Positions 6,842 through 26,323 of a stretch of 64,000 nucleotides of DNA are shown here, piece by piece. The notes under the pieces were generated by a model. That model was not told where the DNA came from. It made no database searches and saw only the letters and a program-made list of their open reading frames with translations. Source of the stretch: Bacteroidales bacterium (GTDB lineage Bacteria; Bacteroidota; Bacteroidia; Bacteroidales; GCA-2748055); NCBI GenBank assembly GCA_020636775.1, contig JACJXF010000002.1:3747-67746 (forward strand), written 5' to 3'. Both the position numbers and the translations under genes were made by a program. Numbering within the stretch: the first letter of the stretch is position 1; every line of letters starts with the position of its first letter.

Positions 6842-6860
6842 TTCTTTCTGCTTACAATAA

Positions 6861-8150
6861 TTAAAGACTCCAGTATACCAGATGTTTTATTTTATCCCTG
6901 TAAATACCCTTGAGGTCAGCTATAATGGCGGGCTCATGAACGATTCCCCTGAAATATTTTTCATCCTTAGTCAGGAACTCATCATGGCTTACGGCAGCTA
7001 CAATGGCATCATAACGGGGATTAACCGTGGACGAGAGTTCAAGTCCATATTCTTCCTTAACCTCATCGGGTGAAGCATGTGGGTCGATAACATCAACCTG
7101 AAGTCCGAAACCCTTCAGCTCCTTTATAACATCCACAACCTTGGAATTTCTGATATCACTTACATTTTCCTTAAAAGTAATTCCCATAACCAGTACACGC
7201 GAATGTTTCAGTTCTTTTCCCACGGAAACAAGTTTCTGAACAATTTCACGGGCAACGTGCTCTCCCATACCGTCATTTATGGAACGGCCGGCATTGATGA
7301 TCTGGGCATGGTGACCGTAACGGGCCGATTTATAAGTAAGATAATAGGGGTCAACACCAATACAGTGACCTCCCACCAGTCCGGGATAAAATTTAAGGAA
7401 ATTCCATTTGGTGCCGGCAGCCTCCAGTACTTCATAGGTATTGATACCCATTTTGGTGAAAATCATGGACAGCTCATTCATGAAGGCAATATTGATGTCT
7501 CTCTGGGTATTTTCAATAATTTTTGCCGCCTCTGCCACTTTAATGGAGCTTGCCCTGTGAACTCCGGCGGTAATGATCAGTTCGTAGGTTTTGGCAATTT
7601 CTTCGGCCGACTCGGCATCGCAACCCGAAGTGACTTTCATGATTTTTGTCAGAGTATGATTTTTGTCCCCAGGGTTTATGCGTTCCGGCGAAAATCCAAC
7701 CTTAAAATCCTTCATATAGCTCAGTCCCGATTCCTTTTCGAGAATAGGGATACAGTCTTCCTCCGTGCAACCGGGATAAACAGTCGATTCATACACTACA
7801 TAGTCACCTTTCTTCAGGGCCTTTCCAACTGTGGCAGTTGCGCTTAGAAGAGGAAAGAGATCAGGTTTTTTATGTTCATCGATGGGTGTGGGAACAGCAA
7901 CAACAAAAAAATTAGCATCGTGCAGCTCGTCCTTATTAGCCGTAAAATGTATGTTACAGTTTTCAAAATCTTCGGATTGAAGCTCGTTACTTGGGTCAAT
8001 CTTTCTTTTCATCAGGTCAATGCGGGATGGTTTAATATCAAAACCAATAACCTGAATTTTCCTTGCAAATTCAAGAGCAATCGGGAGACCTACATATCCC
8101 AGTCCGATTACTGCAAGTTTATTTTTTCCTTCTATTAATTCGGTATACAT
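6861..8150 (-). CDS. wbpA: nucleotide-sugar 6-dehydrogenase, WbpA/TviB-like (UDP-GlcNAc 6-dehydrogenase candidate)
   Basis: It has the N-terminal VIGLGYVGLP Rossmann motif, the GGHCIGVDPYY catalytic-Cys region, and a length of 429 aa. It sits next to WbpB/D/E-like genes. Confidence 0.75.
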   Translation of the reverse strand: MYTELIEGKNKLAVIGLGYVGLPIALEFARKIQVIGFDIKPSRIDLMKRKIDPSNELQSEDFENCNIHFTANKDELHDANFFVVAVPTPIDEHKKPDLFPLLSATATVGKALKKGDYVVYESTVYPGCTEEDCIPILEKESGLSYMKDFKVGFSPERINPGDKNHTLTKIMKVTSGCDAESAEEIAKTYELIITAGVHRASSIKVAEAAKIIENTQRDINIAFMNELSMIFTKMGINTYEVLEAAGTKWNFLKFYPGLVGGHCIGVDPYYLTYKSARYGHHAQIINAGRSINDGMGEHVAREIVQKLVSVGKELKHSRVLVMGITFKENVSDIRNSKVVDVIKELKGFGLQVDVIDPHASPDEVKEEYGLELSSTVNPRYDAIVAAVSHDEFLTKDEKYFRGIVHEPAIIADLKGIYRDKIKHLVYWSL

Positions 8151-8153
8151 TCT

Positions 8154-9110
8154 TTAGAGTTTTAAAGCTTTTGCCATGGGGTGAACTTCACCTTTTAGTC
8201 CTGTTGCTGTTGCGTTACGGATATTGTAAACGGTTTCAATGGATGTCCGGGCATCCTCAAGCCCATAACCTTTTCCGGCGAGAATCGCCTGATATGTCTG
8301 AGTATGTAAATCCGTAAAACCACCGCTGAACTCAAGTTCATCGCCATCAACCGTTATCGAACGAAATGTGCGTTGTCCTTTTTCCTGATATTCTTTTGGT
8401 ACATCATTGTAATCGATGCTCATGAACCAGCGTACCCTTGCTTTTTCCAGTTCAAGGTAACCGGCAGCTTTATCCTTCTGCAGAAGCTGAACGGTGTTGG
8501 TTTTAACTCCCCCGAAAATCCAGGTAAGCATGTCGAAAAAGTGAACACCTATGTTGGTTGCTATTCCTCCTGACTTCTGAATATCTCCTTTCCATGAGAA
8601 ATGGTACCAGTTTCCGCGGCTGGTAATATAGGATAGATCGATTTCATGTATTTTATCTGCCGGGCTTTCCTCGATACGTTTCTTCAGAGCCAAAATTGAA
8701 GGGTGAAGGCGAAGTTGCAGGATATTGTAAACCCTGCGGCCGGTTTCCTTTTCAAAATTCTGAAGGGCATCAATATTCCAGGGATTCAGAACCATGGGTT
8801 TCTCGCAAATAGCATCCGCATCATTCCTGAGGGCGAAACGAATATGGGAATCGTGGAGATAATTGGGCGAGCATATGCTTACATAATCCACTTTCTTGCC
8901 GCACCTTTTAAGTTTATCAATATGCCGGTCGAAGCGCTCAAATTCAACGAAAAAATCAGCGTCGGGAAAATAACTGTCAATAAAGCCAACACTGTCGAAA
9001 TTATCCAGCGCTGCAAGAAGAACATTATTTGTTTCTTTTATGGCTTTGAGATGGCGAACTGCTATATATCCTGCAACGCCAATTATCGCAAAGTTTTTTT
9101 TGGTTTCCAA
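8154..9110 (-). CDS. wbpB: Gfo/Idh/MocA oxidoreductase, WbpB-like (UDP-GlcNAcA 3-dehydrogenase candidate)
   Basis: FAIIGVAGYIAVRHLKAI is the Rossmann start and AICEKP is the family motif. Length is 318 aa, and the gene lies between WbpA-like and WbpD-like genes. Confidence 0.7.
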   Translation of the reverse strand: METKKNFAIIGVAGYIAVRHLKAIKETNNVLLAALDNFDSVGFIDSYFPDADFFVEFERFDRHIDKLKRCGKKVDYVSICSPNYLHDSHIRFALRNDADAICEKPMVLNPWNIDALQNFEKETGRRVYNILQLRLHPSILALKKRIEESPADKIHEIDLSYITSRGNWYHFSWKGDIQKSGGIATNIGVHFFDMLTWIFGGVKTNTVQLLQKDKAAGYLELEKARVRWFMSIDYNDVPKEYQEKGQRTFRSITVDGDELEFSGGFTDLHTQTYQAILAGKGYGLEDARTSIETVYNIRNATATGLKGEVHPMAKALKL

Positions 9111-15730: not shown

Positions 15731-16099
15731 ATGGCTCAGCATAACGACAGGGGCCGTGAAGCCGAGGATCTGGCAGCAGAATACCTGGCTTCTGATGGCT
15801 ACAGAATCCTTCATCGCAACTGGCGTTCGTATCATAAAGAAATTGATATTGTTGCAGAGAAGGATAATCATCTTATTATTATTGAAGTGAAAAGCTGGAG
15901 CGGAGCGAATGTGGTGAGGGCCGACGAATTACTTTCAGGCGGAAAGCAGCGATTCATTGTTGATGCAGCGGAAGCCTACATAAACAAGTACAAATCAGAG
16001 CTTGAGACGCGCTTTGATCTGGTAATAGTCAGCTTTTCCGGCAAGGGACCGGAAATTGAGCATATCAAAGGAGCATTTATTCCGGGGGTAAACTGGTAA
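15731..16099 (+). CDS. yraN: YraN family (UPF0102) endonuclease-like protein
   Basis: GREAEDLAAEYL...GYRILHRNWR....EIDIVA...IIIEVK is the family signature. Length is 122 aa. Confidence 0.85.
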   Translation: MAQHNDRGREAEDLAAEYLASDGYRILHRNWRSYHKEIDIVAEKDNHLIIIEVKSWSGANVVRADELLSGGKQRFIVDAAEAYINKYKSELETRFDLVIVSFSGKGPEIEHIKGAFIPGVNW

Positions 16100-16178
16100 A
16101 CCCCGATGGTGAAACACGCATTAATCTAAAGTGTGATTCCGGGCGGGCCATTGAATTGAGGGAGGAATTTTTGGCCTC

Positions 16179-16889
16179 CTAATTATCACTTTCTTTGACA
16201 ATTTTGTGTATGGAATTTATATTTTTTATGCCAATAGCAAATAAAAGAAGCCATATTTCCCGTGATAAAATATATAATTTCTCGGCTAGTCCGGCATAAG
16301 GAAGTCTTAATGAATTAACCACAAATAGAGAAATTAAAAATACAACACAAAGTATTGTTAATAGATTGGCTGATTTGAATATATTGTCCCATTCGGGTTC
16401 TTTTTTGATTCTTTTTGTTAGAAGTATTGCACCGATAATGAAGAAAAACCAACCTGCAATAGCTGAACCCATATGAATTTTACCTGAAATTGTGGTCGGA
16501 AAACTTCCAGGGGCTAAAATATCAGTTGGGAAAATTGCGGTAAGTAAATACGTGATCCCAAATAGAATGAGAAGAATTCCTCCGGTCTTGTAACCAGTAC
16601 TTTTCTTCACCTTAGCTATCATTAAAATGTAAAGGGAAATGGTTCCCAGGGCAGTAATTATGTATGCAATAGTGTATATAATCCCACTCCTGCCAACAGC
16701 ATAATCACTAATATAATTCTTAAAAAAAGTATAATCCGGTCGTAAAAAATGAACTGCAATTGCTGCAAGAATATAGTAAAGTGGCGCAAATACAGAAAGG
16801 TAGAAGGTTACTCTTAAAAGCCATGAATTCTCCGAGTTTGAAATAAGACTTTTCATATTCTTTTTTTTAGTTAAACATTTTTTAAACAA
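16179..16889 (-). CDS. polytopic membrane protein (DUF998-like)
   Basis: About six hydrophobic segments are present. Similarity to DUF998 is from memory only. An alternative start is the ATG at 16856 (MKSLISN). Confidence 0.4.
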   Translation of the reverse strand: MFKKCLTKKKNMKSLISNSENSWLLRVTFYLSVFAPLYYILAAIAVHFLRPDYTFFKNYISDYAVGRSGIIYTIAYIITALGTISLYILMIAKVKKSTGYKTGGILLILFGITYLLTAIFPTDILAPGSFPTTISGKIHMGSAIAGWFFFIIGAILLTKRIKKEPEWDNIFKSANLLTILCVVFLISLFVVNSLRLPYAGLAEKLYILSREIWLLLFAIGIKNINSIHKIVKESDN

Positions 16890-17062
16890 CTGAATTTTAA
16901 AAACGTTTGTTAAAAAAAGTTAAAGATTCGTTTCTAAAAAAATGTTAAAAATTATTTGTTAATCTGAACATTTGAATATTTGAACTTGTTTTTGGAAAAT
17001 CATTTCAACTATTATATTTCCGTATAAGCAATTTATCAAAAGATTATTTAATTGATATTTGT

Positions 17063-19783
17063 ATGAAGAAATTAATACTGGCCTGGTCTGGTTACCTTTC
17101 AAAGATGCCGTTTCTATTCTTCCTGATGTTTATTTACACTCAGGATAATTTTTCCCAAATAATCCTGTATTACAACGGAAATATTTTCACATCGGATTCT
17201 AATAAACCATTTATTGGATATTTCATTTCAGAAGATGGAATAATTTCAGAAACAGGTGATACTATAGCAAGCCAACGAATTTCGCAATTTGAAAACAAAG
17301 TTGACTTACAAGCCAAAACAATTATTCCCGGAATTGTTGACAGCCACATTCACTTTATTGATGGATCTTTGGGTTTATTGCAAATTAGCTTGAGTGATAT
17401 TGCCAATTCCGACGAATTAAGAGACAAAATAAAATCCACATCAAGCCAGTTGCTCGACGGATTTTACGTGGCAAGGGACCTTGGATTTTCAGCACTTTCC
17501 GGAGTTGACTCTCCACGTGAATTTCTGGACGCTCTTTTACCAGATTCCCCTGCAATTATCTTTTTAAAGAGTGGTCATGCAGCAGTAGCTAACACGGCTG
17601 GATTACGAAAACTGGGTTTTACCGAACGTACCAAAATTCCAGATGGTACCATTGGAACAGGGAAAGACGGAAATCTGAATGGATGGTTGCTCGAAGCAGC
17701 AGCAATGGAGGGATTAAAAAGAGTGGGGTCAAAATATTCAGAAGAAACAATTCAAAAAGCCATTCAAATTGGACAGGAACTGGCATTATCCTATGGAATT
17801 ACCACCCTTGGCGATAATACCTTCTCGCCCTATAATATGAAAATTTACCAATTCCTGCAGCGCAAGGGAGACCTCAATCTGCGAATGTGGACGAGAAGTT
17901 ATGGCCGTATACCGCAAACCACAAGCCTAATGAAACCTATGGGAATTAAGAAACTTGGGTTTATCGGTCCTGAGAATGATTTTGACCGTGTTCATTATCA
18001 CCTCATTAAGTTGTTTGAAGATATGTCACTTTCCGTTCCTCCAGGCATGACCGGGAACATTGAACCTGGCGGGACCGTCTATCTGGATAAAAATGAAATA
18101 AAGAAATATCTGCTGCTTCATCCGGATGATAAATTTGCTTTTCATGTTCAGGGCGAAAAAGGACTTCAAAATATTATTGATGCCCTTGATGAACTTGGCA
18201 CAAGAAACAACAACCGGAGACATGTGATTGATCATGCCGGATATTGCACTGAAAAGCAGTTGGAGGAGCTGAAGAATTTAGGGGAGTCAGTTACAATTTT
18301 GGCTTCCCAAACCTTTGATTATCCAACTTTATTAAGGGAATACAGTAGTTCGAATAGTAAACTCAGAGAAGATGAACTGCTTGATGCCCGTTTGAAATAT
18401 AACGTGATCCACGGCGCATTGTCGAGCGATTTCCCTTATGGAATGGATACCAGTTTCATTAAGTACAAATTTGTTGATGGATTGAATCCATTCCCTAATA
18501 TGGCAATTAACGTCTCAGGCAAAATGCCTGATGGCATAGCTCTTAAAGATTTTGATAATAAAACACTTAGTATTCAGGAAGCTGTGAAATCCTATACTGC
18601 AAACGGAGCCTATGTTTTAAGCCAGGAAAATCTGTTGGGGAAGATTTCTCCCGGTTATGTTGCCGATTTCGCTGTTCTCGACCGCAATATCTTTGACCAA
18701 AGCCCAATGGATTTGTACAATTGTAAAATCGAACAGACTTATTCAGGAGGGAAAAAAGTTTATGACAGGAATGAAAAATTGTCCTCAGAAGACTTTTCGG
18801 CAAAGGAGAAGATAAATCCATATGATTATACAATCAGCCCGGTTTTCGGTTACGATCCTTCAACAGGATTTGTATTTGGCGCTGCAGGTTTTATCTATCC
18901 TCTAACCACTCCTGCAAGTTATGGAGATGTTCAGGTAATGGCAACAATCCCAGGAAAAATTCAGATTCAGTCAAGCTATATGCGTTACGGAATATTTAAG
19001 AACACAGATTTTAAAGTACCCATTACGTTTAACACCTTTCCGCAATATTATTTTGGTGAAAACGATACAACTTCCGGAGAAAATTACATCGAACTATTTT
19101 CGAACCGTTATTTAGCGCGGCCTGAATTTATATACAGCTTACCCAATCATTTAAAAGCTGCTGTTTTTGCTGATTTCCGAGCCAGAAAAGAAACATCGGT
19201 TCAGGATAAGAATGGTGAACTTTTAAATCAAAGACTTTTTCCTGATGAGCAGAATCTCGGATTGGGACTGAGTTTAATTTATGATACGCGTGACAATCCG
19301 GGTTCCACAAAACTAGGGTTCTATGGTTCTGCTTATTACGAAAATGTTTCAGGCCTCAATACGTCTACCACAGGTAATGCAGGGCTTTTAGGGGCTGATA
19401 TAAGGTATTTCCATTATATATATACCTCGAAATATGTATTTGCTGCCCGCTTTTCAGGAGGCACCAGTTTTGGAAGACCGTCCTATTTATACCGATATTC
19501 TCTGGGTGGGCCGGAAAGACTAAGGGGATACTATTCCAATCGCTTCAGGGGAAACAATTTCTACTCGGTTCAGACGGAATTTAGGTTCCCTGTATATAAA
19601 AAGTTTTCGGGCGTATGCTTTGTTGACGAAGGGGATGTGAGTGACGGGAAACTGGATAAGGTGCTTTTTAGTTACGGAGGAGGGATTCGTTTTTCTATAA
19701 ACGATAATGTAGCCCTGAGACTTGATTACGGAAGAGGAAAAGATCAAAATGGCGTATTCTTTACTTTTGGGGAAGCGTTCTAA
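17063..19783 (+). CDS. fusion protein: amidohydrolase (amidohydrolase_3/YtcJ-like) N-terminal domain plus Omp85/Bac_surface_Ag beta-barrel C-terminal domain
   Basis: The N-terminus is hydrophobic (FLFFLMFIY). Metal-hydrolase motifs are IIPGIVDSHIHF, HVQGEKG, VIDHAGY, SSDFPYG and PGYVADFAVLD. The C-terminal ~320 aa carry RYSLGGPERLRGY, CFVDEGDV and GGGIRFSINDNVALRLDYG, with a terminal aromatic (GEAF). It is one uninterrupted 906-aa ORF. Confidence 0.7.
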   Translation: MKKLILAWSGYLSKMPFLFFLMFIYTQDNFSQIILYYNGNIFTSDSNKPFIGYFISEDGIISETGDTIASQRISQFENKVDLQAKTIIPGIVDSHIHFIDGSLGLLQISLSDIANSDELRDKIKSTSSQLLDGFYVARDLGFSALSGVDSPREFLDALLPDSPAIIFLKSGHAAVANTAGLRKLGFTERTKIPDGTIGTGKDGNLNGWLLEAAAMEGLKRVGSKYSEETIQKAIQIGQELALSYGITTLGDNTFSPYNMKIYQFLQRKGDLNLRMWTRSYGRIPQTTSLMKPMGIKKLGFIGPENDFDRVHYHLIKLFEDMSLSVPPGMTGNIEPGGTVYLDKNEIKKYLLLHPDDKFAFHVQGEKGLQNIIDALDELGTRNNNRRHVIDHAGYCTEKQLEELKNLGESVTILASQTFDYPTLLREYSSSNSKLREDELLDARLKYNVIHGALSSDFPYGMDTSFIKYKFVDGLNPFPNMAINVSGKMPDGIALKDFDNKTLSIQEAVKSYTANGAYVLSQENLLGKISPGYVADFAVLDRNIFDQSPMDLYNCKIEQTYSGGKKVYDRNEKLSSEDFSAKEKINPYDYTISPVFGYDPSTGFVFGAAGFIYPLTTPASYGDVQVMATIPGKIQIQSSYMRYGIFKNTDFKVPITFNTFPQYYFGENDTTSGENYIELFSNRYLARPEFIYSLPNHLKAAVFADFRARKETSVQDKNGELLNQRLFPDEQNLGLGLSLIYDTRDNPGSTKLGFYGSAYYENVSGLNTSTTGNAGLLGADIRYFHYIYTSKYVFAARFSGGTSFGRPSYLYRYSLGGPERLRGYYSNRFRGNNFYSVQTEFRFPVYKKFSGVCFVDEGDVSDGKLDKVLFSYGGGIRFSINDNVALRLDYGRGKDQNGVFFTFGEAF

Positions 19784-19822
19784 ATATTCTTTCCCATAAG
19801 AAGAATTAAAAAATATCAAATT

Positions 19823-20230
19823 ATGAAAGAAGACAACGCTAATATCGCAATCGTAAAACAATTGTATAACGCTTTTATGAAAAAAGAGATTAATACAATT
19901 TTAGGATTATTAAGCCAGGATGTAGAATGGGGAGAACCTGAAAATCCTTTTAACCCCGCGGGTGGAACAAGAACAGGTCATGCCGGATTTTTGGAATGGA
20001 TAAATATTGGGAAAGAAGCAGAAGATATTTTAGTACTTGAACCCAAACAGTTTCTCACCAATGACAATTTCGTAGCAGTTAGCGGTTATATGAAATGTCT
20101 CGCAAAACCAACCGGTAAAGTTTATGAATCAGATTTTGTTCATCTTGTAAAAATTAAGGATAATAAAATTCAAAAGTTTCAGGAATTCTTTGATACTTAT
20201 ATTGCCGGTGAAGCTTTTCGTGTGAATTAA
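19823..20230 (+). CDS. SnoaL/NTF2-like (ketosteroid-isomerase-like) small protein
   Basis: The 135-aa protein starts IVKQLYNAFMKKEINTILGLLSQDVEW and ends KIQKFQEFFDT, typical of the SnoaL-like fold. Confidence 0.6.
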   Translation: MKEDNANIAIVKQLYNAFMKKEINTILGLLSQDVEWGEPENPFNPAGGTRTGHAGFLEWINIGKEAEDILVLEPKQFLTNDNFVAVSGYMKCLAKPTGKVYESDFVHLVKIKDNKIQKFQEFFDTYIAGEAFRVN

Positions 20231-20241
20231 AACTACTTATT

Positions 20242-20649
20242 ATGGGTCATATTATAAAGCTAAATACCGTATTATTTATTATAATTATGCTAGGTATGGA
20301 AGCAAATGCACAAAACAAAATAGTAAGAAATGAGCTGTTGGATGCTCAATTTGAGGAAAGAACCGTTTCAAAGGTTAAGGTAGTTGAAATTGAATTTCCA
20401 GCCGGGCAAAAAGCCCCCCTTCATAAACATCCATGCCCTGTTATTGGGTCAATAGTTGAAGGGGAATGTCTTGTGCAGGTTGAAGGAGAACCGGCTAAAG
20501 TTTTAAAGGCAGGTGACGCCTTCTATGAACCAGCCGACACGCCAATCATTCATTTCGATAATTATTCGGAAAAAGAGCCCATGAAATTTATTGCATACTA
20601 TCTGCTGAAAGATGAAAAAGATTTAATTGAGCTATTGCCGAAACGTTAG
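20242..20649 (+). CDS. exported cupin-domain protein
   Basis: It has a signal-like N-terminus. The cupin motifs are PLHKHPCPVIGSIVEGE and GDAFYEPADTPIIH. Confidence 0.65.
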   Translation: MGHIIKLNTVLFIIIMLGMEANAQNKIVRNELLDAQFEERTVSKVKVVEIEFPAGQKAPLHKHPCPVIGSIVEGECLVQVEGEPAKVLKAGDAFYEPADTPIIHFDNYSEKEPMKFIAYYLLKDEKDLIELLPKR

Positions 20650-20736
20650 GAGAATCATGTTCAGAAATATTAAATCAAAAACAACGTCTTTTAAAACCAG
20701 CGAAGTCAAAAGGATTTATCTTAAAAATTTCAGACT

Positions 20737-21027
20737 ATGTTTATAATTCATGTAAACTACATAAAACCGCTCAGCGAAGTTGACAAATACATCGCAGACC
20801 ACGCTAAATTTCTTGATAAGCAATATGCGAATAACAATTTCATTGTTTCCGGGCGAAAGAATCCCAGGACCGGAGGCATTATTCTAACATCCATTTCTGA
20901 AAGGGAAGAGCTTGAACATATTGTTTCCCTGGATCCTTTTTTTGTAAATAAAATTGCAGAATATGAGATTATTGAATTTGTCCCAACTAAGTATGATGAG
21001 GGGTTTAAGAAATTCATAAAGGAATAA
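20737..21027 (+). CDS. YciI-family protein
   Basis: The 96-aa protein has the layout FIIHVNY...HAKFL...SGR...GGIIL...DPF, typical of YciI-like proteins. Confidence 0.6.
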   Translation: MFIIHVNYIKPLSEVDKYIADHAKFLDKQYANNNFIVSGRKNPRTGGIILTSISEREELEHIVSLDPFFVNKIAEYEIIEFVPTKYDEGFKKFIKE

Positions 21028-21038
21028 TTTATAACGCG

Positions 21039-22022
21039 GTGAAAGCAATTGTATTCAATAGCACAGGAGATTTTGATAAGGTATTGAATCTAACTGAAGT
21101 GCCAATTCCGGAACCTGCAGAAAATGAGGTTAGAATAAAAGTCCAGGCAAGCCCGATAAATCCGGCGGATATCCTTTTTATAAATGGAAAATACCGTCTA
21201 AAACCTGTTCTCCCTCAAATTGCAGGATTGGAGGGGGCTGGTATTATTGATAAATTGGGCGAAAAAGTAAATATGAAGATTGGATCTCTCGTTGCATTTC
21301 GTGACAAAAATATTTGGGCCGAATATGTTGTCGTACCTGCTAATAAGCTTGTTGTTTTACCTCCTGATTTTCCTGTTGAAAAAGCATGTCAGTTTTCCTT
21401 AAATCCGATTACGGCTTATGCATTATTGGATGAAGCAAATGTCAGAACTGAAGATGAGTGGATATTACTTACTGCAGGCAATTCTTCTGTCTCAAAGCTG
21501 ATTATTCAATTTGCGAAACTGAATAATATTAAAACAATAGCAGTTGCACGCAATAGCGACAATTTTTCTGAACTAGATTCTTTAGGGGCAACGGCAATAA
21601 TTACTGATGATTTTGCAAATATCGAGCATAGGGTAAATGAAATTACAAAGGGAAAAGGCGTAAAATGTGTATTGGATGCAGTTGGTGGTGAATTGATAAG
21701 CAAGCTTATAAAAACAATTTCTCCATTTGGCAAACTTATCTCATATGGACTTATCAGTAATGAAAATGTGACCTACCATAATTCATCTATTATTTTCAGG
21801 AATATTACCATTAAAGGGTTTGGAATAGATAATTGGTTAAATGAAACTACGAAAAACAATTATAAGGATACCATTGATGTATTGATTTCAATTCTAATAA
21901 ATCCAGGTTTTATAATGCCTGTTGCAGCAAAATATCCGCTTACTGAATATAAAAAGGCATTTGAGAAATATATTCATACTAGAAATGGAAAAATATTACT
22001 GATAGCTAGCTTTGATAAATAA
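21039..22022 (+). CDS. medium-chain dehydrogenase/reductase (quinone-oxidoreductase-like)
   Basis: It uses a GTG start. VRIKVQASPINPADI and GLEGAGII are present, a nucleotide-binding region follows, and length is 327 aa. Confidence 0.7.
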   Translation: MKAIVFNSTGDFDKVLNLTEVPIPEPAENEVRIKVQASPINPADILFINGKYRLKPVLPQIAGLEGAGIIDKLGEKVNMKIGSLVAFRDKNIWAEYVVVPANKLVVLPPDFPVEKACQFSLNPITAYALLDEANVRTEDEWILLTAGNSSVSKLIIQFAKLNNIKTIAVARNSDNFSELDSLGATAIITDDFANIEHRVNEITKGKGVKCVLDAVGGELISKLIKTISPFGKLISYGLISNENVTYHNSSIIFRNITIKGFGIDNWLNETTKNNYKDTIDVLISILINPGFIMPVAAKYPLTEYKKAFEKYIHTRNGKILLIASFDK

Positions 22023-22088
22023 AATAGAATTCTCCCGGATAACTTTGCCATAAAAATCGATTTCCTAATAATAACAGTAAAATTGAAT

Positions 22089-22859
22089 ATGAAAACTTTA
22101 TTTGCACTCTCATTTTTAATATGTCAATTTCTTTCAGGGATAGCGCAGACTAGTAAAAGTGAGGTATTAATTATCAGTACCATTCACGGAGCACATAAAA
22201 TCAACCCAAATTATTCGTATGATTCACTTTTTACTTTTGTTGAAAAGTTTAACCCGGATATTATCGGGGTTGAAATACGAAATGAAGATATTGACAGCTC
22301 TGTTTCTTATCTAAAAGATAATTACCCTTTTGAAATGTATACCAGTGTTTCAAAGTTTTCTACAAAAAAGGTCATAGGTTTTGACTGGTTAGGTGCAGAA
22401 TTAGCAGGTCATGCTATACCCCAAAACTATTGGAAAGAAAAAAGCACCATTAAAAAATTACAACAGAAATTGTCTACAGACAGTACAATGCTCAAAAGTC
22501 TTTCGGTTTTAGACATAATTAACGACGAAAAGAACAAACTGGTTTTGAGTGCTACAATTCAGGAATTGAATGATGGCAGATACGATTTGATTAATCGAAT
22601 TTATTATGAGCAGTTGGAACTGCTTCTAAAAGACACACAATACAATTTATTGTCTGATTTTTATAAAGAAAGAGATGAAATCATTGCTCGAAATATTCTG
22701 GAAATAATTAAAAACAATGATGGCAAGAAAATGATTTTTTTGTTAGGTGCTGATCACAGAGATTTTATTCTTAGAAATGTTTCGGAGGAATTTAAAGATA
22801 CTATAATATTAAATGATTTTGCAATTAGAAAACATATTCCTTTTGAATTGAAAGAATAG
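22089..22859 (+). CDS. exported TraB/GumN/PrgY-like (DUF5694-like) protein
   Basis: It has a signal peptide (LFALSFLICQFLSGIAQ). VLIISTIHGAHK, DIIGVEI and FLLGADHRDF resemble the TraB/ChaN-type fold. The family name is from memory. Confidence 0.45.
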   Translation: MKTLFALSFLICQFLSGIAQTSKSEVLIISTIHGAHKINPNYSYDSLFTFVEKFNPDIIGVEIRNEDIDSSVSYLKDNYPFEMYTSVSKFSTKKVIGFDWLGAELAGHAIPQNYWKEKSTIKKLQQKLSTDSTMLKSLSVLDIINDEKNKLVLSATIQELNDGRYDLINRIYYEQLELLLKDTQYNLLSDFYKERDEIIARNILEIIKNNDGKKMIFLLGADHRDFILRNVSEEFKDTIILNDFAIRKHIPFELKE

Positions 22860-22934
22860 AAACGTTTACAAACTGCATGTAATTTGCAATAGTGGGTGAA
22901 ATTGTAAATCAAAGTTCAATACTTCTTATTTATA

Positions 22935-23783
22935 ATGGGATATACGGACAGGAAATTGCTTCATATTGTTTCATTTAAGTTTGACAGAATGAAAAATGAT
23001 AGGAATATCAAGTCAGGCAGACCTGGAATTCTTTATGGGATTAAGGGTTTTGTAATTTTGTTTCTTGTCTATCATCTTCCCGAATTTCTGCAGAACAATT
23101 ATAAAAAACCATTGATTCTGGTCCTCGAACTAGGTATGCTTTTATTTGCTCTTATCTCTTTTTATATAGGCAGACGATGGCACCACAATGGATTAAGAAT
23201 TTACGGATTTTATTCTTTCAGGAAAAATTGGGGAAATTTAATCCTGGGATTAATCATCGGGATTTTTCTAGCCGGTTCGGCAAATTTGTTTCCGGTTTTA
23301 TTTGGGTGGAGCCGATTTTCTCTTCAATTGAACCTGGGACAAATTCTTTTACAAACACTTATCTTCTCTATTGGCACACTCTTGCCTTCATTAGGGGAAG
23401 ATATTCTAACCCGAGGTTATTTACGGGTATTCTGGCCAGAAAACCTGAACATTAAATGGCTGATTCTGATATCTGCAGCAGTTTATGTGTTGAACCACAT
23501 TTTCAGGTTAACAAAACCTGATGTAATGCTTTACCTTTTAATTCTTGGTTATTTGCTCATGTGGTGCTATGTTAAAACAGGTACTTTATGGCTTACTCTG
23601 GGAATTCATTGGGGAACCAACATTGCCTACCAGTGTTTCACAAATCTCGTAAGCTTCAATCCAATTAAAGAAACAGGGATGGAAAATTATATTTTAGCTG
23701 CGAGTTATAGTTTAGGTATTCTGCTGGTCATAATATTGCAAAAAATGAATTTATTTACCCTGGAAGCTAATAATGCAAATTAA
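22935..23783 (+). CDS. CPBP-family (CAAX/Abi) intramembrane glutamic protease
   Basis: It is a multi-TM protein with EDILTRGYL (EExxxR-type), the first His motif VLNHIFRL, and LGIHWGTN. An alternative start is near 22989. Confidence 0.7.
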   Translation: MGYTDRKLLHIVSFKFDRMKNDRNIKSGRPGILYGIKGFVILFLVYHLPEFLQNNYKKPLILVLELGMLLFALISFYIGRRWHHNGLRIYGFYSFRKNWGNLILGLIIGIFLAGSANLFPVLFGWSRFSLQLNLGQILLQTLIFSIGTLLPSLGEDILTRGYLRVFWPENLNIKWLILISAAVYVLNHIFRLTKPDVMLYLLILGYLLMWCYVKTGTLWLTLGIHWGTNIAYQCFTNLVSFNPIKETGMENYILAASYSLGILLVIILQKMNLFTLEANNAN

Positions 23784-23842
23784 ACTACTTTAGAATAACA
23801 GATTAAATCTTGTCTAAACTTTCAATTTAATGAAAAAAAGCC

Positions 23843-24337
23843 ATGAATAAATTTACTTTAATTGCACTTTTTCTTTTAATTATATCTTTAAACTTAAATG
23901 TTAATGCGATGAATATAAAAGCTGATTCTACTGCAAAATGTTATGCATCCTCAGAAATCATAATAAACGCATCTAATCAACATGTTTTTGAAATTCTTTC
24001 AAACATTAAAAAGTGGCCGGAATGGCAAAGCAGTGTAATAAAAGTTGAGATAGATGGAAATGCTGAAGTTGATAAAACGTTTAAATGGAAAGCAGGTGGT
24101 TTAAATATAAAATCAAAACTACATACTGTCAATCCAGATTCTGAGATTGGCTGGACTGGAAGAATCTGGTGGATAAAAGCAGTTCATAATTGGTATTTAA
24201 CCGAAGAAGGCGGACAAACAAAAGTAATTGTTAAGGAATCTTTGAAAGGATTAGGGTCATCAATGATGCGCAAATCACTGGAGGAGGGCATGAAAAAGAA
24301 TCTTGATGAATTGAAAATTCAGGCTGAAAAGAGCTGA
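23843..24337 (+). CDS. exported SRPBCC (polyketide-cyclase/START-like) protein
   Basis: It has a signal peptide. VFEILSNIKKWPEWQS and KWKAGG are typical of the Polyketide_cyc2/SRPBCC fold. Confidence 0.6.
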   Translation: MNKFTLIALFLLIISLNLNVNAMNIKADSTAKCYASSEIIINASNQHVFEILSNIKKWPEWQSSVIKVEIDGNAEVDKTFKWKAGGLNIKSKLHTVNPDSEIGWTGRIWWIKAVHNWYLTEEGGQTKVIVKESLKGLGSSMMRKSLEEGMKKNLDELKIQAEKS

Positions 24338-24646
24338 CACGGGATTCCAATTCTTAATTAATATTAATGGAAACAGAATGGTAAAAATTAACTGTAAAAT
24401 TTATGCAGTTCCATCAATATAAAAATGTAAAAATTTTATTTCCCATAATTCCATCCTTAGGCATAAAATACCGTTTTTATTGCGGTTTAAAAACATATAA
24501 GCTATGTGCTATTCATTATTTTTAATAATTTTAGGGTTTTGTTTTTATCATTATGTAAGCGGATAAAGCTTATTTCTAAGTATAGATTTTTTTAAGATGC
24601 AATCCGTTATTACTATCTCAAGGATTCATTCATAAGCAATTAAATT

Positions 24647-25006
24647 GTGAATCAAGAAGAGATCCGAGATTATTGTTTAAAAAAACAAGGCGTAACCGAG
24701 AGTTTGCCTTTCAATGACACAGCCCTTGTCTTTAAGGTTGGAGGAAAAATGTTTGCCTTATTGGATCTTTCTGAAGACAGCAGGGGAATAACTTTGAAGT
24801 GTGACCCCTTTTTGGCAATTGAACTGCGTGAGCATCACCCAGAGATTACTCCGGCTTGGCACTTTAACAAGAAACACTGGAACACAGTTTTCATGGACGG
24901 CAGCCTGAAGAAGGAAATGGTACTATCCCTGATCGATCATTCTTATGAAATCATTGTGGAGAGCCTCCCAAAATCAAAGAAGGAAGAACTTAAAAGAAAG
25001 AAATAA
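24647..25006 (+). CDS. MmcQ/YjbR-family protein
   Basis: It uses a GTG start. IRDYCLKKQGVTESLPFNDTALVFKVGGKMFAL...HWNTV is the family pattern. Length is 119 aa. Confidence 0.7.
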   Translation: MNQEEIRDYCLKKQGVTESLPFNDTALVFKVGGKMFALLDLSEDSRGITLKCDPFLAIELREHHPEITPAWHFNKKHWNTVFMDGSLKKEMVLSLIDHSYEIIVESLPKSKKEELKRKK

Positions 25007-25007
25007 T

Positions 25008-25574
25008 ATGAAAAAGATTATTGGTTATTTTTTCCAGGGATTATTATATGTTGCTCCCCTGGGCCTTACGTTTTATGCAATATTTTTACTTTTTAACCTG
25101 GTAGACGGATTAATACAACGTTATCTGGAGGCATGGATCAAGGTTCATATCCCCGGTCTGGGAATAGTTATTATCTTTCTGTTCATATCATTCCTTGGCC
25201 TGATTGGCGGTACCATCATCGCCTCCCCCATAAAAAGAGCCATTGATAAAGTCCTTGAAAGAGCCCCTCTGTTCAAACTAATTTATTCTTCGGTTCGGGA
25301 TCTGTTATCGGCTTTTGTGGGGAAGGAAAAGAAATTCACCCAGCCGGTGCTTGTTAAAGTAAATACTATTTCAGAACTGGAAAAAGTCGGATTTCTGACG
25401 CAGGAAGATCTTAACAGTATTGGCATTAAGGATAAGGTGGCCGTATATTTTCCCCACTCTTATAATTTTTCGGGGGAGATGTTTATCGTCCCCAGTGAAC
25501 ATGTACGCCCCCTCGATATGGCTCCAACAGATGCCATGAAATTTGTGGTTTCGGGAGGTGTTGCCTTATCCTGA
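25008..25574 (+). CDS. DUF502 membrane protein
   Basis: I moved the start to the ATG at 25008 (MKKIIGYFFQGLLYVAPLGLTFY). It has two TM segments and HIPGLGIVI. The track ORF's 5' extension overlaps the mmcQ-like gene. Confidence 0.6.
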   Translation: MKKIIGYFFQGLLYVAPLGLTFYAIFLLFNLVDGLIQRYLEAWIKVHIPGLGIVIIFLFISFLGLIGGTIIASPIKRAIDKVLERAPLFKLIYSSVRDLLSAFVGKEKKFTQPVLVKVNTISELEKVGFLTQEDLNSIGIKDKVAVYFPHSYNFSGEMFIVPSEHVRPLDMAPTDAMKFVVSGGVALS

Positions 25575-25675
25575 AAATAAATATGCTATGTAATTATTAT
25601 TGTTTTTTGTTTCGTTTAGTTAATGTACTTTTAATCTTTAAAATCCTGCATTAATTCCTGAAATTCCAAAATTCA

Positions 25676-26323
25676 ATGAGCCTCAATTCTTTCTTTCAGA
25701 AGCTGGTCCCGACAGACCTCAAGTTTTATCCCATGTTTGAAAATATGGCAGAACTGATTGTCAAAGCATCTTCCTCACAGCTATTAATATTTGAACACGA
25801 TGATCCTGTAAAGCAAAAAGACCTTTTCAAACTCATTAAAGAACTTGAAAACAAAGCTGATGAAGTTGTCCAGACTATCTTCGATGAACTGGATAAATCT
25901 TTTGTACCCCCTTTTGATCGTGAGGATATGAATGTACTTACAACTTCACTTGATGAAGTAATTAACGGAATTAACGGTGTAGCTCAGAGGGTCAGGCTTT
26001 ACCGTCCAAAAGAAATCCCTTCCGAATTTAAGGATTTCGCCAAATTGATTTCCAAAGGTTGCGAGCAGATAAATATTTCTGTTAAGGAACTGCACGACTT
26101 AAAAAAGCCTGCAAAAATTCTTAAGGCCTGCAAAAAGATAAATGATCTTGAAAAAGAAGCCGATGAATTATACCATTCCACCATTTCCACTATTTTTAAG
26201 AAAGAAAAAGATGCCATAGAGCTGATTAAGCAAAAGGAAATGCTTGAAAATCTGGAAAAAACGGCAGATCGTATAAAATCGGTTTCCAATATCCTCAAGA
26301 TTATTATTCTTAAGATGTCTTAA
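25676..26323 (+). CDS. DUF47 (PhoU-like) phosphate-transport accessory protein
   Basis: The 215-aa helical protein lies directly upstream of a PiT transporter, which is the canonical pairing. Confidence 0.75.
   Translation: MSLNSFFQKLVPTDLKFYPMFENMAELIVKASSSQLLIFEHDDPVKQKDLFKLIKELENKADEVVQTIFDELDKSFVPPFDREDMNVLTTSLDEVINGINGVAQRVRLYRPKEIPSEFKDFAKLISKGCEQINISVKELHDLKKPAKILKACKKINDLEKEADELYHSTISTIFKKEKDAIELIKQKEMLENLEKTADRIKSVSNILKIIILKMS

What the first reader, a model, noticed from the sequence alone, without database searches (positions are those of the whole stretch)
17063..19783. Amidohydrolase fused directly to an Omp85-type beta-barrel: a possibly undescribed outer-membrane enzyme or type-V-like architecture
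One uninterrupted 906-aa ORF joins three parts.
- The N-terminus is hydrophobic and signal-like.
- A ~550-aa metal-dependent amidohydrolase follows (amidohydrolase_3/YtcJ-like), with PGIVDSHIHF, VIDHAGY, SSDFPYG and PGYVADFAVLD.
- After only a ~15-20-residue linker comes a ~320-aa Omp85/Bac_surface_Ag barrel with RYSLGGPERLRGY, CFVDEGDV, GGGIRFSINDNVALRLDYG and a C-terminal Phe.

I see no POTRA-like segment between enzyme and barrel. The enzyme-Omp85 fusions I know of are patatin-POTRA-barrel (PlpD, type Vd secretion) and metallophosphatase-Omp85 proteins in Bacteroidota. I do not recall an amidohydrolase passenger.

The gene opens an AT-rich accessory block. It is followed by small detoxification-type enzymes (SnoaL, cupin, YciI, MDR reductase), which hints at surface or periplasmic processing of an amide or heterocyclic compound.
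Basis: partly seen in the sequence, partly recalled or inferred. Interest (0 to 1): 0.72.

Follow-up and report, generated by a model that had tools for sequence, protein, structure and literature searches.

The report
Amidohydrolase fused to POTRA-less Omp85 barrel
This is a real, conserved but rare bacterial gene in which a metal-dependent amide-cleaving enzyme is joined by a short tether directly to an Omp85-type outer-membrane barrel, most likely anchoring the enzyme under the outer membrane rather than secreting it; the architecture was not found in the literature searched.

Summary
ORF 17063..19783 (+) encodes one 906-aa protein with four parts:
- a signal peptide (1-31);
- a YtcJ-like amidohydrolase (about 33-568; Pfam PF07969, E=3e-44) with all six binuclear-metal ligands;
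- a variable 18-residue linker;
- a 16-stranded Omp85 barrel (587-906) carrying the RGY (loop L6) and FxDxG (strand β13) lid-lock motifs and a C-terminal Phe.

There is no room for a POTRA domain.

The fusion is not an artefact. The identical protein occurs in two other assemblies. About 65 full-length homologue clusters (34-84% identity) share the architecture. They come from Bacteroidota, Ignavibacteria and Kapaibacteria, and one is in the cultured myxobacterium Vulgatibacter incomptus.

The family is rare: about 15 representatives among 1.84 billion. Databases call it only "amidohydrolase family protein".

The barrel's nearest relatives are stand-alone "noNterm" Omp85 proteins, which suggests an enzyme gene fused to such a barrel.

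By barrel topology, and by analogy with PlpD (now shown to be periplasmic), the enzyme most likely sits on the periplasmic face, with the barrel as its anchor. The type-V-like secretion reading is not favoured. The substrate is unknown. Links to neighbouring genes are weak and clade-limited.

Verdict: a new variant of the known enzyme-Omp85 fusion theme, of moderate interest.

The parts
17063..17155 (+). Signal peptide (residues 1-31). Signal-peptidase-I type with no lipobox Cys; predicted cleavage is ...NFS|Q.
   Evidence: The family alignment shows short hydrophobic N-termini ending in a small-x-small motif followed by Gln in most members. The AF2 model gives a low-confidence helix at 9-28. 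The link between Gln at +1 and Bacteroidota signal-peptidase-I substrates (the 'Q-rule') is from my own knowledge.
17156..18766 (+). YtcJ-like (Amidohydro_3) metal-dependent amidohydrolase domain, residues about 32-568. The ligand set is H95/H97, K316, H361, H391 and D456.
   Evidence: Pfam PF07969 covers 80-567 with E=3.4e-44. Foldseek matches 3igh/3icj with TM 0.84. The ligands are invariant in 42 homologues and kept in 16 of 18 divergent representatives. They sit just after strands b1, b4, b5, b6 and b8 of the model.
18767..18820 (+). Inter-domain linker, residues 569-586: variable in sequence, nearly constant in length.
   Evidence: Mean pairwise identity is 15%, against 51% for the enzyme and 48% for the barrel. 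Length is 16-26 residues in 16 of 18 divergent members, 35 in P0070 and 91 (low complexity) in P0203. The model shows coil, with pLDDT about 56 for 571-580.
18821..19780 (+). Omp85-type 16-stranded beta-barrel, residues 587-906, of the POTRA-less 'noNterm' kind, ending in Phe.
   Evidence: Support comes from the NCBIfam Omp85_fam match, the profile search against PDB sequences, the Foldseek match to the TamA barrel, and nearest relatives that are stand-alone PF01103 proteins covering 95-99% of the barrel. DSSP gives 17 strand segments. These reduce to 16 if 676-685 and 688-693 are one strand kinked at R686-P687; that reading gives short periplasmic turns and long outer loops (my interpretation).
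19475..19555 (+). Loop L6 (residues 805-831), with the Omp85 signature L-R-G-Y at 820-823 (nt 19520-19531).
   Evidence: L820, R821 and G822 are invariant in all 18 divergent members; position 823 is Y in 16, F in one and A in one. The motif definition is taken from PMC4490367 and PMC11358297.
19619..19633 (+). FxDxG 'lock' motif on strand beta13 (F853-V-D855-E-G857).
   Evidence: G857 is invariant, F853 is nearly invariant, and position 855 is D or E in all 18.
19823..20230 (+). SnoaL_2/NTF2-like gene 39 bp downstream; no signal peptide. A possible but unproven partner.
   Evidence: Pfam gives E=6.6e-10. The gene is adjacent to the fusion in L006, L007, L008 and the window, and also in the distant L014, where it is 61% identical while the fusion is only 43% identical.
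22935..23783 (+). CPBP/Rce1-like intramembrane protease gene, a recurrent neighbour. A possible but unproven partner.
   Evidence: Pfam PF02517. Related copies lie within about 4 kb of the fusion in L008, L010, L011, L013 and L015, and immediately downstream in L011 and L015. A different CPBP lies just upstream in L003.
23843..24337 (+). SRPBCC (Polyketide_cyc2) gene with a signal peptide, a recurrent neighbour within the Bacteroidales clade.
   Evidence: Pfam gives E=2.5e-13. It is 70-75% identical in L006, L007, L008 and L016. Signal peptides are visible in the window, L007 and L008 copies.

Best explanation
The gene encodes an outer-membrane-anchored, periplasm-facing metallo-amidohydrolase.

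Proposed pathway:
1. The protein is exported by Sec and cut by signal peptidase I.
2. Its C-terminal 320 residues are inserted by BAM as a 16-stranded Omp85 barrel.
3. The N-terminal 55-kDa (beta/alpha)8 enzyme, with a binuclear metal centre and a carboxylated lysine, folds in the periplasm. It is held by an 18-residue tether against the periplasmic face of its own barrel.

The barrel descends from a stand-alone POTRA-less ('noNterm') Omp85. [quoted passage not shown] The substrate is unknown. I infer an amide (or urea/carbamate-type) bond in a hydrophobic or envelope-associated molecule.

What is shown: the fusion is real, the domain identities, the absence of POTRA, the intact catalytic and Omp85 motifs, and the phylogenetic spread.
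What is inferred: the periplasmic location, the anchor role, and the substrate class.
For: Architecture and reality of the fusion.

Topology:
- L6, which carries RGY, is extracellular in every solved Omp85.
- Counting strands back from it in the DSSP string puts the N-terminus of beta1, and hence the linker, on the periplasmic side. It also gives short periplasmic turns (1-4 residues, with one of 10) and long outer loops.
- pTM is 0.88 for a two-domain, 906-aa chain while the linker itself is low-confidence. This implies a defined enzyme-barrel interface rather than a passenger threaded through the pore.

Export signals: there is no lipobox and no T9SS-type C-terminal domain.

Precedent: the PlpD enzyme domain is periplasmic (PMC11116518).

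The enzyme is probably active: all six ligands are invariant in 42 homologues and kept in 16 of 18 divergent ones.

Both domains are under similar constraint (51% and 48% mean identity), whereas the linker is free (15%).

Origin: the closest barrels are stand-alone PF01103 proteins of 320-400 aa. One example is P0213, with 394 bits and the same beta1 motif SP(I/V)xGYDP. The same barrel type also carries an unrelated N-domain in P0217. This modularity fits an anchor role.
Against: - No coordinates or PAE were available, so I could not see which face of the barrel the enzyme docks on.
- An extended 18-residue linker (about 60 A) could in principle span a pore.
- The barrel keeps every Omp85 functional motif, and its C-terminal half is the most conserved part of the protein (59% identity). 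That is more than a passive anchor might need.
- Two lineages (P0206, P0208) have lost metal ligands but keep the barrel, so catalysis is not universally required.
- The substrate is entirely unassigned. The closest solved structures (3igh, 3icj) are themselves uncharacterised.
Confidence: 0.6

Rival explanations
1. Coupled gate-enzyme. The Omp85 barrel is not just an anchor. Through its beta1/beta16 lateral seam or its lumen it hands the fused enzyme a substrate. The substrate would be either an amide-linked outer-membrane lipid (sphingolipid, lipo-amino acid, ornithine lipid, N-acyl chain of lipid A) or a compound entering from outside. On this reading the protein is an outer-membrane lipid-remodelling or uptake-and-hydrolysis device.
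For: - The barrel is as conserved as the enzyme, and its lid-lock half is the most conserved segment.
- Linker length is held at 16-26 residues in most members.
- pTM 0.88 suggests a fixed geometry.
- Loss of PlpD alters membrane lipid levels, consistent with its enzyme acting on endogenous lipids (PMC11116518).
- The family lives in Bacteroidota and Myxococcota. Both are rich in amide-linked membrane lipids (my own knowledge).
- Recurrent neighbours include an exported SRPBCC lipid-binding-fold protein.
Against: - There is no direct evidence for any lipid substrate.
- Characterised YtcJ-like enzymes act on small soluble or xenobiotic amides (my own knowledge).
- Omp85 lumens are closed by L6 in the solved structures.
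- P0203 tolerates a 91-residue linker.
- The neighbour links are clade-limited.
Confidence: 0.2
2. Type-V-like self-export. The Omp85 barrel translocates the N-terminal amidohydrolase across the outer membrane, so that the enzyme is displayed on, or released from, the cell surface.
For: - The passenger-then-barrel domain order resembles autotransporters and the original PlpD model (PMC4104836).
- The linker could span a membrane if fully extended.
- The family profile also detects an amidohydrolase of this kind joined to another possible barrel (P0209).
Against: - The PlpD passenger is periplasmic, and its Fusobacterium homologue was not detected on the surface (PMC11116518).
- A 55-kDa TIM-barrel that needs two metal ions and a carbamylated lysine is a poor candidate for unfolded passage and refolding outside the cell (inference).
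- The lid-lock motifs that hold L6 inside the lumen are intact.
- There is no POTRA or TPS-type recognition module.
- The linker is low-confidence coil rather than a pore-filling helix.
Confidence: 0.1
3. Specialised insertase or translocase. The barrel keeps an Omp85-type protein-assembly or translocation function. The amidohydrolase-fold domain replaces POTRA as a substrate-binding or processing module, and may be non-catalytic in some lineages.
For: - All Omp85 signature motifs are conserved.
- The 2014 census took a role in protein assembly as the default hypothesis for unknown Omp85 subfamilies.
- Two lineages have degenerate active sites but intact barrels.
Against: - 16 of 18 divergent members keep a complete catalytic ligand set, which points to selection for catalysis.
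- No partner or substrate gene is conserved across the family.
- PlpD keeps the same motifs without a known insertase role.
Confidence: 0.07
4. Artefact: a frameshift, read-through or chimeric assembly joins two separate genes, an amidohydrolase and a noNterm Omp85.
For: - Stand-alone versions of both halves exist.
- One related MAG (L008) shows the gene split into three ORFs.
Against: - The identical intact ORF appears in two other independent assemblies.
- About 65 colinear full-length homologue clusters occur across several phyla, including a finished isolate chromosome.
- The second half has no signal peptide of its own.
Confidence: 0.01

Closest known systems
PlpD/FplA, patatin-like Omp85 proteins ('type Vd')
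   Same: - An N-terminal hydrolytic enzyme and a C-terminal 16-stranded Omp85 barrel in one polypeptide.
- Sec signal peptide.
- RGY and FxDxG motifs.
- Probably the same logic: an enzyme held at the periplasmic face of the outer membrane (PMC11116518).
   Different: - PlpD has a POTRA domain and a helical linker between enzyme and barrel; this protein has only an 18-residue coil.
- The enzyme fold and chemistry differ: patatin Ser-Asp lipase versus a binuclear-metal amidohydrolase.
- PlpD forms a homodimer; the oligomeric state here is unknown.
'Metallo' Omp85 subfamily (PF00149 metallophosphatase domain + Omp85 barrel; Heinz & Lithgow 2014)
   Same: - A POTRA-less, direct fusion of a metal-dependent hydrolase to an Omp85 barrel.
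- Its barrel was also reported as similar to noNterm barrels and proposed to derive from them.
- Uncharacterised experimentally.
   Different: - The enzyme superfamily differs (calcineurin-like phosphoesterase versus amidohydrolase).
- No PF00149-Omp85 protein appeared among the 120 closest barrel relatives, so this looks like an independent fusion event. A formal phylogeny was not done.
noNterm Omp85 proteins (for example Leptospira LIC12252/12254/12258 and Bacteroidota homologues)
   Same: The barrel is homologous over its whole length (25-39% identity over 95-99% of the query; up to 394 bits against the family profile). There is no POTRA, and the lid-lock motifs are the same.
   Different: Those proteins have only 22-43 periplasmic residues. 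This one carries a 536-residue enzyme. The DUF5982-type noNterm proteins are only distant relatives (E of about 1e-10 to 1e-5).
YtcJ-like amidohydrolases (Amidohydro_3; solved examples 3icj and 3igh from Pyrococcus)
   Same: Fold (TM 0.84) and the complete HxH/K/H/H/D ligand pattern.
   Different: - Those are stand-alone soluble proteins of about 480-600 aa.
- Identity is only 20-28%.
- The fused subfamily has its own conserved motifs, for example GITT(I/L)GDNT.
- The function of the solved relatives is also unknown.
TamA/BamA
   Same: A 16-stranded Omp85 barrel. Foldseek gives TM 0.70 to the TamA barrel 4n74. The barrel profile hits BamA and TamA sequences.
   Different: There are no POTRA domains, and no evidence of a TamB or BAM-lipoprotein partnership. 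The sequence relationship is remote.

Membership tests
Omp85/TpsB superfamily | Membrane-embedded 16-stranded beta-barrel homologous to BamA/TamA | tested here: met
   The barrel profile against PDB sequences gives 9ccg_A 2.9e-19, BamA 1e-8 and TamA 8e-6. Foldseek matches the TamA barrel with E=4.8e-14 and TM 0.70. The DSSP strand pattern reduces to 16 strands with the correct loop/turn parity (my interpretation of one kinked strand).
Omp85/TpsB superfamily | L6 loop (V/I/L)RG(Y/F) motif and beta13 (F/G)xDxG motif (lid-lock) | tested here: met
   L820-R821-G822-Y823 and F853-x-D855-x-G857 are present. R821, G822 and G857 are invariant in 18 divergent members. Motif definitions come from PMC4490367 and PMC11358297.
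Omp85/TpsB superfamily | Pfam PF01103 (Omp85/Bac_surface_Ag) hit above the gathering threshold | tested here: not met
   This protein has no PF01103 hit at E<=1, either full length or barrel alone. Homologues do pass: P0203 scores 64 bits and P0214 scores 40 bits against a cutoff of 24, and 11 have precomputed hits. This is a sensitivity failure of one model, not evidence against membership.
Omp85/TpsB superfamily (classical definition) | [quoted passage not shown] | tested here: not met
   Only 18 coil residues separate the enzyme from beta1. There is no PF07244 or PF08479 hit. The linker is 16-35 residues in 17 of 18 divergent members. Non-POTRA subfamilies are, however, accepted members since PMC4104836.
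Type Vd secretion (PlpD-like) | Patatin-like passenger + POTRA + Omp85 barrel | tested here: not met
   There is no patatin domain and no POTRA. Only the barrel is shared.
Type Vd secretion (PlpD-like) | Translocation of the N-terminal enzyme across the outer membrane | not testable with these tools
   This needs protease shaving or fractionation. The feature is itself now disputed for PlpD.
Amidohydrolase superfamily, Amidohydro_3 / YtcJ-like | PF07969 hit above threshold and a (beta/alpha)8 fold with an inserted beta-sandwich | tested here: met
   152.6 bits against a cutoff of 29.7, covering profile positions 3-472 of 472. Foldseek gives TM 0.84 to 3igh/3icj.
Amidohydrolase superfamily, binuclear subtype | Metal ligands HxH (after b1), Lys (b4, carboxylated), His (b5), His (b6), Asp (b8) | tested here: met
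   H95/H97, K316, H361, H391 and D456 are invariant in 42 sequences. They lie at the ends of model strands 91-96, 310-318, 358-361, 388-390 and 452-454. Carboxylation and metal content are inferred, not tested.
noNterm Omp85 subfamily | Omp85 barrel with only a short (<50 aa) periplasmic N-terminus | tested here: not met
   The barrel is of this type by homology, but the protein carries a 536-aa N-terminal enzyme. It is a derivative of the subfamily, not a member.

The most novel reading that the evidence does not exclude
A POTRA-less Omp85 barrel works together with its fused binuclear metallo-amidohydrolase as an outer-membrane lipid-editing machine. The barrel's lateral seam presents amide-linked envelope lipids (sphingolipids, lipo-amino acids, ornithine lipids or lipid A N-acyl chains) to an active site held at the inner leaflet. 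This would be a new enzymatic function for the Omp85 superfamily and a new class of outer-membrane lipid amidase.
Probability: 0.12. Interest if true: 0.8.

Novelty: new variant of a known kind. Interest (0 to 1): 0.5.

Why it matters
Omp85 proteins are best known as the machines that insert or translocate outer-membrane proteins. Only one enzyme-Omp85 fusion, PlpD, has been studied. Whether its enzyme is secreted ('type Vd') or stays in the periplasm was revised only in 2024.

This family is a natural minimal case: an enzyme, an 18-residue tether and a barrel, with no POTRA. It allows a clean test of whether Omp85 barrels are reused simply as membrane anchors or contribute a gate.

It also gives a first functional handle on the enigmatic noNterm Omp85 clade. 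It defines a divergent, exported branch of the poorly characterised YtcJ amidohydrolases.

A member in a cultured type strain, Vulgatibacter incomptus DSM 27710, makes the experiments feasible. Databases currently label these proteins only as 'amidohydrolase family protein', so the membrane half goes unnoticed.

Tried and rejected
1. Pfam PF01103 on the whole protein and on the barrel alone gave no hit. I replaced it with NCBIfam, profile-against-PDB and fold evidence.
2. Four literature searches for the architecture (Omp85+amidohydrolase; Omp85+domain architecture+metallophosphoesterase; amidohydrolase+barrel+POTRA; YtcJ+outer membrane) found nothing relevant. The library is open-access only, so absence is not proof.
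3. Operon hypothesis with the downstream SnoaL/cupin/YciI/MDR genes. Contexts in L003, L004, L005, L009 and L012 are unrelated. Cupin, YciI and MDR recur only in L007. I rejected it as a family-wide operon and kept SnoaL, SRPBCC and CPBP as weak leads.
4. P0209: an amidohydrolase detected by the family profile, with the metal-ligand motifs, joined to a non-Omp85 C-terminal domain. It would have been good evidence that the barrel is an interchangeable anchor. However, the C-terminal domain has no Pfam match, no homologue and no contig on record, so it remains an anecdote.
5. The sigma-70 promoter and terminator scan around the gene gave counts at shuffle level. It is uninformative, and Bacteroidota promoters are not covered.
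6. Identity of the best solved barrel relative, 9ccg: no paper was found.
7. Model coordinates and PAE are not exposed. I could not measure which barrel face the enzyme docks on or where the active site points.
8. I considered and rejected a cryptic POTRA, since the linker is too short and is coil. I also rejected a lipoprotein anchor (no Cys), and a 12-stranded autotransporter barrel (the strand count and the TamA match argue against it).


Full report
OBSERVATION

Pfam assigns residues 80-567 to Amidohydro_3 (PF07969, E=3.4e-44, 152.6 bits against a cutoff of 29.7), with a weaker overlapping Amidohydro_1 hit.

Pfam gives no Omp85 (PF01103) hit, either for the whole protein or for the C-terminal 327 residues alone. 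It turns out to be a sensitivity failure of that one model:
- NCBIfam's Omp85_fam model matches residues 733-906 with E=2.9e-20.
- A profile built from the barrel part of 19 family members hits solved Omp85 proteins: 9ccg_A at 2.9e-19, BamA 8xnb at 1e-8 and several TamA entries at 8e-6 to 3e-3.
- Eleven homologues carry precomputed PF01103 hits.
- P0203 and P0214 pass the Pfam threshold when scanned here.

STRUCTURE

An AlphaFold2 model built on a 42-sequence alignment is confident (mean pLDDT 88, pTM 0.88). Along the chain it shows:
- a low-confidence N-terminal helix, which is the signal peptide;
- a (beta/alpha)8 enzyme ending at about residue 568;
- coil from 569 to 586;
- beta-strands running uninterrupted from 587 to 905.

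Foldseek against the PDB matches the N-terminal part to the YtcJ-like hydrolases 3igh and 3icj (E of about 5e-28, TM 0.84). It matches the C-terminal part to the isolated TamA barrel 4n74 (E=4.8e-14, TM 0.70 over 336 columns) and to full-length TamA 4c00.

DSSP lists 17 strand segments. Strands 676-685 and 688-693 are separated only by R686-P687. If I read them as one kinked strand, the count is 16. The pattern is then the classical one: seven periplasmic turns, six of 1-4 residues and one of 10, and outer loops of 3-27 residues. The longest loop is L6 (805-831), and it carries L820-R821-G822-Y823. The F853-x-D855-x-G857 motif falls on strand 13. This strand assignment is my interpretation. 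The motif definitions come from PMC4490367 and PMC11358297.

There is physically no room for a POTRA domain of about 75 residues, and none is detected.

IS THE FUSION REAL?

Yes.
- The identical 906-aa product is called on contigs assembled independently from SRR12358676 and SRR12358675, with the same neighbours.
- A search of 5.8 billion protein clusters returns 74 hits. About 65 of them are 870-945 aa long and colinear over 96% or more of the query at 34-84% identity, in addition to the query's own cluster.
- Sources name them only 'amidohydrolase family protein' or 'predicted amidohydrolase YtcJ'.
- A scan of one genome per GTDB species finds 11 full-length fused loci. They come from Maribellus, Bacteroidales UBA5536, Rikenellaceae, two Ohtaekwangia, Cyclobacteriaceae, Flavobacteriales, Bacteroidia, an unclassified Bacteroidetes bacterium, Candidatus Kapaibacterium and Ignavibacteriae. 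All are MAGs.
- An exhaustive profile search of 1.84 billion 50%-identity representatives finds only about 15 full-length fused representatives. Ranked below them are stand-alone barrels (320-400 aa, up to 394 bits) and then stand-alone amidohydrolases (520-600 aa, up to 218 bits).
- One fused representative, P0203 (966 aa), lies on the finished chromosome CP012332.1. That record is Vulgatibacter incomptus DSM 27710T, a cultured myxobacterium (PMC6060248).

The family is therefore genuine, rare, concentrated in the Bacteroidota and their relatives the Ignavibacteria and Kapaibacteria, and also present in Myxococcota.

ANATOMY ACROSS THE FAMILY

N-termini are short Sec signal peptides with no lipobox cysteine. 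In most members Gln follows the predicted cleavage site. That fits the pyroglutamate 'Q-rule' of Bacteroidota signal-peptidase-I substrates (my own knowledge).

The six residues expected for a binuclear amidohydrolase centre are H95 and H97, K316, H361, H391 and D456. They are invariant in the 42-sequence alignment. They sit just after model strands b1, b4, b5, b6 and b8. The HxH, Lys and two His positions align with the corresponding residues of 3igh and 3icj.

Among 18 representatives as low as 29% identical, 16 keep all six. P0206 and P0208 have genuinely lost several ligands, within well-aligned flanks, yet keep intact barrel motifs.

Mean pairwise identity is 51% for the enzyme and 48% for the barrel (41% for its N-terminal half, 59% for its C-terminal half). 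It is only 15% for the linker. Linker length, in contrast, is held at 16-26 residues in 16 of 18 representatives. The exceptions are a 35-residue Gly-rich linker in P0070 and a 91-residue low-complexity linker in P0203.

ORIGIN

Searching with the barrel alone finds stand-alone PF01103 proteins of 335-395 aa from Bacteroidota as the nearest non-fused relatives. They are 25-39% identical over 95-99% of the query. These are the 'noNterm' Omp85 type of Heinz and Lithgow. More distant relatives carry DUF2141 or DUF5982 in front of the barrel.

P0213 is a signal peptide plus about 30 residues plus a barrel, with the same beta1 motif SP(I/V)xGYDP. P0217 has the same barrel type behind an unrelated domain of about 330 residues with no Pfam match.

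The simplest history is that a YtcJ-like enzyme gene fused to a noNterm Omp85 gene. The 2014 census proposed the same route for the metallophosphatase ('Metallo') Omp85 subfamily.

MECHANISM

In every solved Omp85, L6 is extracellular and the N-terminus of beta1 is periplasmic. The strand parity of the model preserves this, so the enzyme is attached on the periplasmic side.

A pTM of 0.88 for a protein with 536-residue and 320-residue domains, together with a low-confidence linker, implies a defined enzyme-barrel interface. I could not inspect it, because coordinates are not exposed.

The only experimentally studied enzyme-Omp85 fusion is PlpD. It was first described as a self-secreting 'type Vd' system. 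In 2024 it was shown to keep its patatin domain in the periplasm, docked under the barrel, where its loss alters membrane lipid levels (PMC11116518).

A 55-kDa TIM-barrel that needs two metal ions and a carbamylated lysine is also an unlikely passenger for unfolded transit through a pore that L6 occupies. This last point is inference.

I therefore favour an outer-membrane-anchored, periplasm-facing amidohydrolase (confidence about 0.6). The rivals are:
- the barrel also gates a lipid or imported substrate (0.2);
- true surface export (0.1);
- a retained insertase role, with the enzyme fold acting as an accessory module (0.07);
- an artefact (0.01).

The substrate is unknown. The closest solved structures are themselves uncharacterised, and no NCBIfam equivalog comes close to its cutoff.

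GENE CONTEXT

- Loci L003, L004 and L005 have unrelated neighbours.
- Across 15 loci, the cupin, YciI and MDR genes recur only in L007.
- The SnoaL-like gene has no signal peptide and carries a conserved VEWGEPENPFNPAGGTR motif. It is adjacent to the fusion in five loci. One of these is the distant Flavobacteriales locus L014, where SnoaL is 61% identical while the fusion is only 43% identical.
- An exported SRPBCC protein recurs in five loci, all in the close-relative group in which the fusion is 65-80% identical (L006, L007, L008, L016 and the window).
- A related CPBP/Rce1-like intramembrane protease lies within about 4 kb in six loci spanning three distant clades. It is immediately downstream in the Kapaibacterium and Ignavibacteriae loci. 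A different CPBP lies just upstream in L003.
- In L004, L010 and L013 a membrane-associated LytTR protein and a small unannotated protein lie directly upstream.

These are leads rather than evidence of an operon. Shared ancestry inflates the counts.

The window's AT-rich stretch is real: GC is 0.30-0.39 between about 16 and 26 kb. None of the other 14 fused loci has the window's flanking housekeeping genes near the fusion. That fits an accessory, relocatable gene.

COMPARISON AND NOVELTY

The protein is a member of the Omp85 superfamily by barrel homology, fold and signature motifs. It fails the classical requirement for at least one POTRA domain, as do the accepted noNterm, WD40 and Metallo subfamilies. 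It is not a type Vd (PlpD-like) protein, because it has no patatin domain and no POTRA. It is a member of the Amidohydro_3/YtcJ branch of the amidohydrolase superfamily.

The 2014 census lists ten Omp85 subfamilies, and none has an amidohydrolase. Four full-text searches found no description of this architecture.

I class it as a new variant of a known kind, namely enzyme-Omp85 fusions. Interest is about 0.5. It is not a new principle. It is, however, a clean, POTRA-less natural test case for what Omp85 barrels do when fused to enzymes, and one member is in a culturable strain.

Noticed in passing
window 16000-26000: An AT-rich block (GC 0.30-0.39, against 0.40-0.46 on either side) covers the DUF998 gene, the fusion gene and nine small downstream genes. 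No mobile-element gene was seen in it. The flanking genes (metG, LD-carboxypeptidase, YraN, YjbR, DUF502, PhoU_div) are not next to the fusion in any other locus.
   Followed up: partly
L008 6001-8542 (Rikenellaceae MAG CAVYRA010000014.1): The closest GTDB-representative copy (79% identity) is broken into three ORFs (6001-7635, 7595-8095, 8207-8542). This is either a pseudogene or indel errors in that assembly.
   Followed up: no
P0206 and P0208 (family representatives): Two divergent fused members have lost several metal ligands. In P0208, DAQVDLF replaces DSHIHF and SSHWP replaces SSDFP. In P0206, K is replaced by G, H by R and H by Q. Both keep intact Omp85 RGY and FxDxG-type motifs. They may be pseudo-enzymes.
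   Followed up: partly
P0209 (866 aa): An amidohydrolase detected by the family profile, with the metal-ligand motifs visible in its sequence, is joined to a C-terminal domain of about 290 aa. That domain has no Omp85 match, no Pfam match and no homologue, is rich in aromatic and Gly residues, and ends ...GLRWEIY. It could be a different outer-membrane barrel. No contig is on record for it.
   Followed up: yes
P0217 (670 aa): The same barrel type (beta1 motif ISPVIGYDPTIGF) sits behind an unrelated N-terminal domain of about 330 aa with a signal peptide and no Pfam match. This is another undescribed Omp85 fusion.
   Followed up: partly
L011 7040-7798; L015 8615-9457; L010 3735-4475(-); L013 3676-4422(-); L008 10181-10990; window 22935-23783: Related CPBP/Rce1-like intramembrane proteases (33-36% identical between clades, with shared SSFSED(V/I)xTRG and LNHIYRL motifs) recur near the fusion gene in three distant clades. 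The gene is immediately downstream in the Kapaibacterium and Ignavibacteriae loci.
   Followed up: partly
L004 6530-7993; L010 4577-5935; L013 4529-5972: In an unnamed MAG (L004) and in the Ohtaekwangia and Cyclobacteriaceae loci, a protein of about 295 aa with a C-terminal LytTR DNA-binding domain and a probably membrane-embedded N-terminus lies directly upstream of the fusion on the same strand. A small protein of 113-143 aa with no confident Pfam match follows it.
   Followed up: partly
window 19823-20230 and L014 261-740: The SnoaL-like neighbour is more conserved than the fusion itself. Between the window and the Flavobacteriales locus it is 61% identical, against 43% for the fusion. It has an invariant VEWGEPENPFNPAGGTR motif and no signal peptide.
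   Followed up: partly
L085 9462-10808 (Vulgatibacter incomptus CP012332.1): A group II intron-type reverse transcriptase (RVT_1 + GIIM) lies about 560 bp downstream of the myxobacterial fusion gene, and a RidA-family gene lies 60 bp upstream.
   Followed up: no
barrel relatives P0165-P0193: Other small N-terminal add-ons occur on related barrels in Bacteroidota: DUF2141 (PF09912) + PF01103 at about 490 aa, and DUF5982 (PF19412) + PF01103 at about 463 aa. The noNterm clade appears to be a hotspot for N-terminal domain accretion.
   Followed up: no
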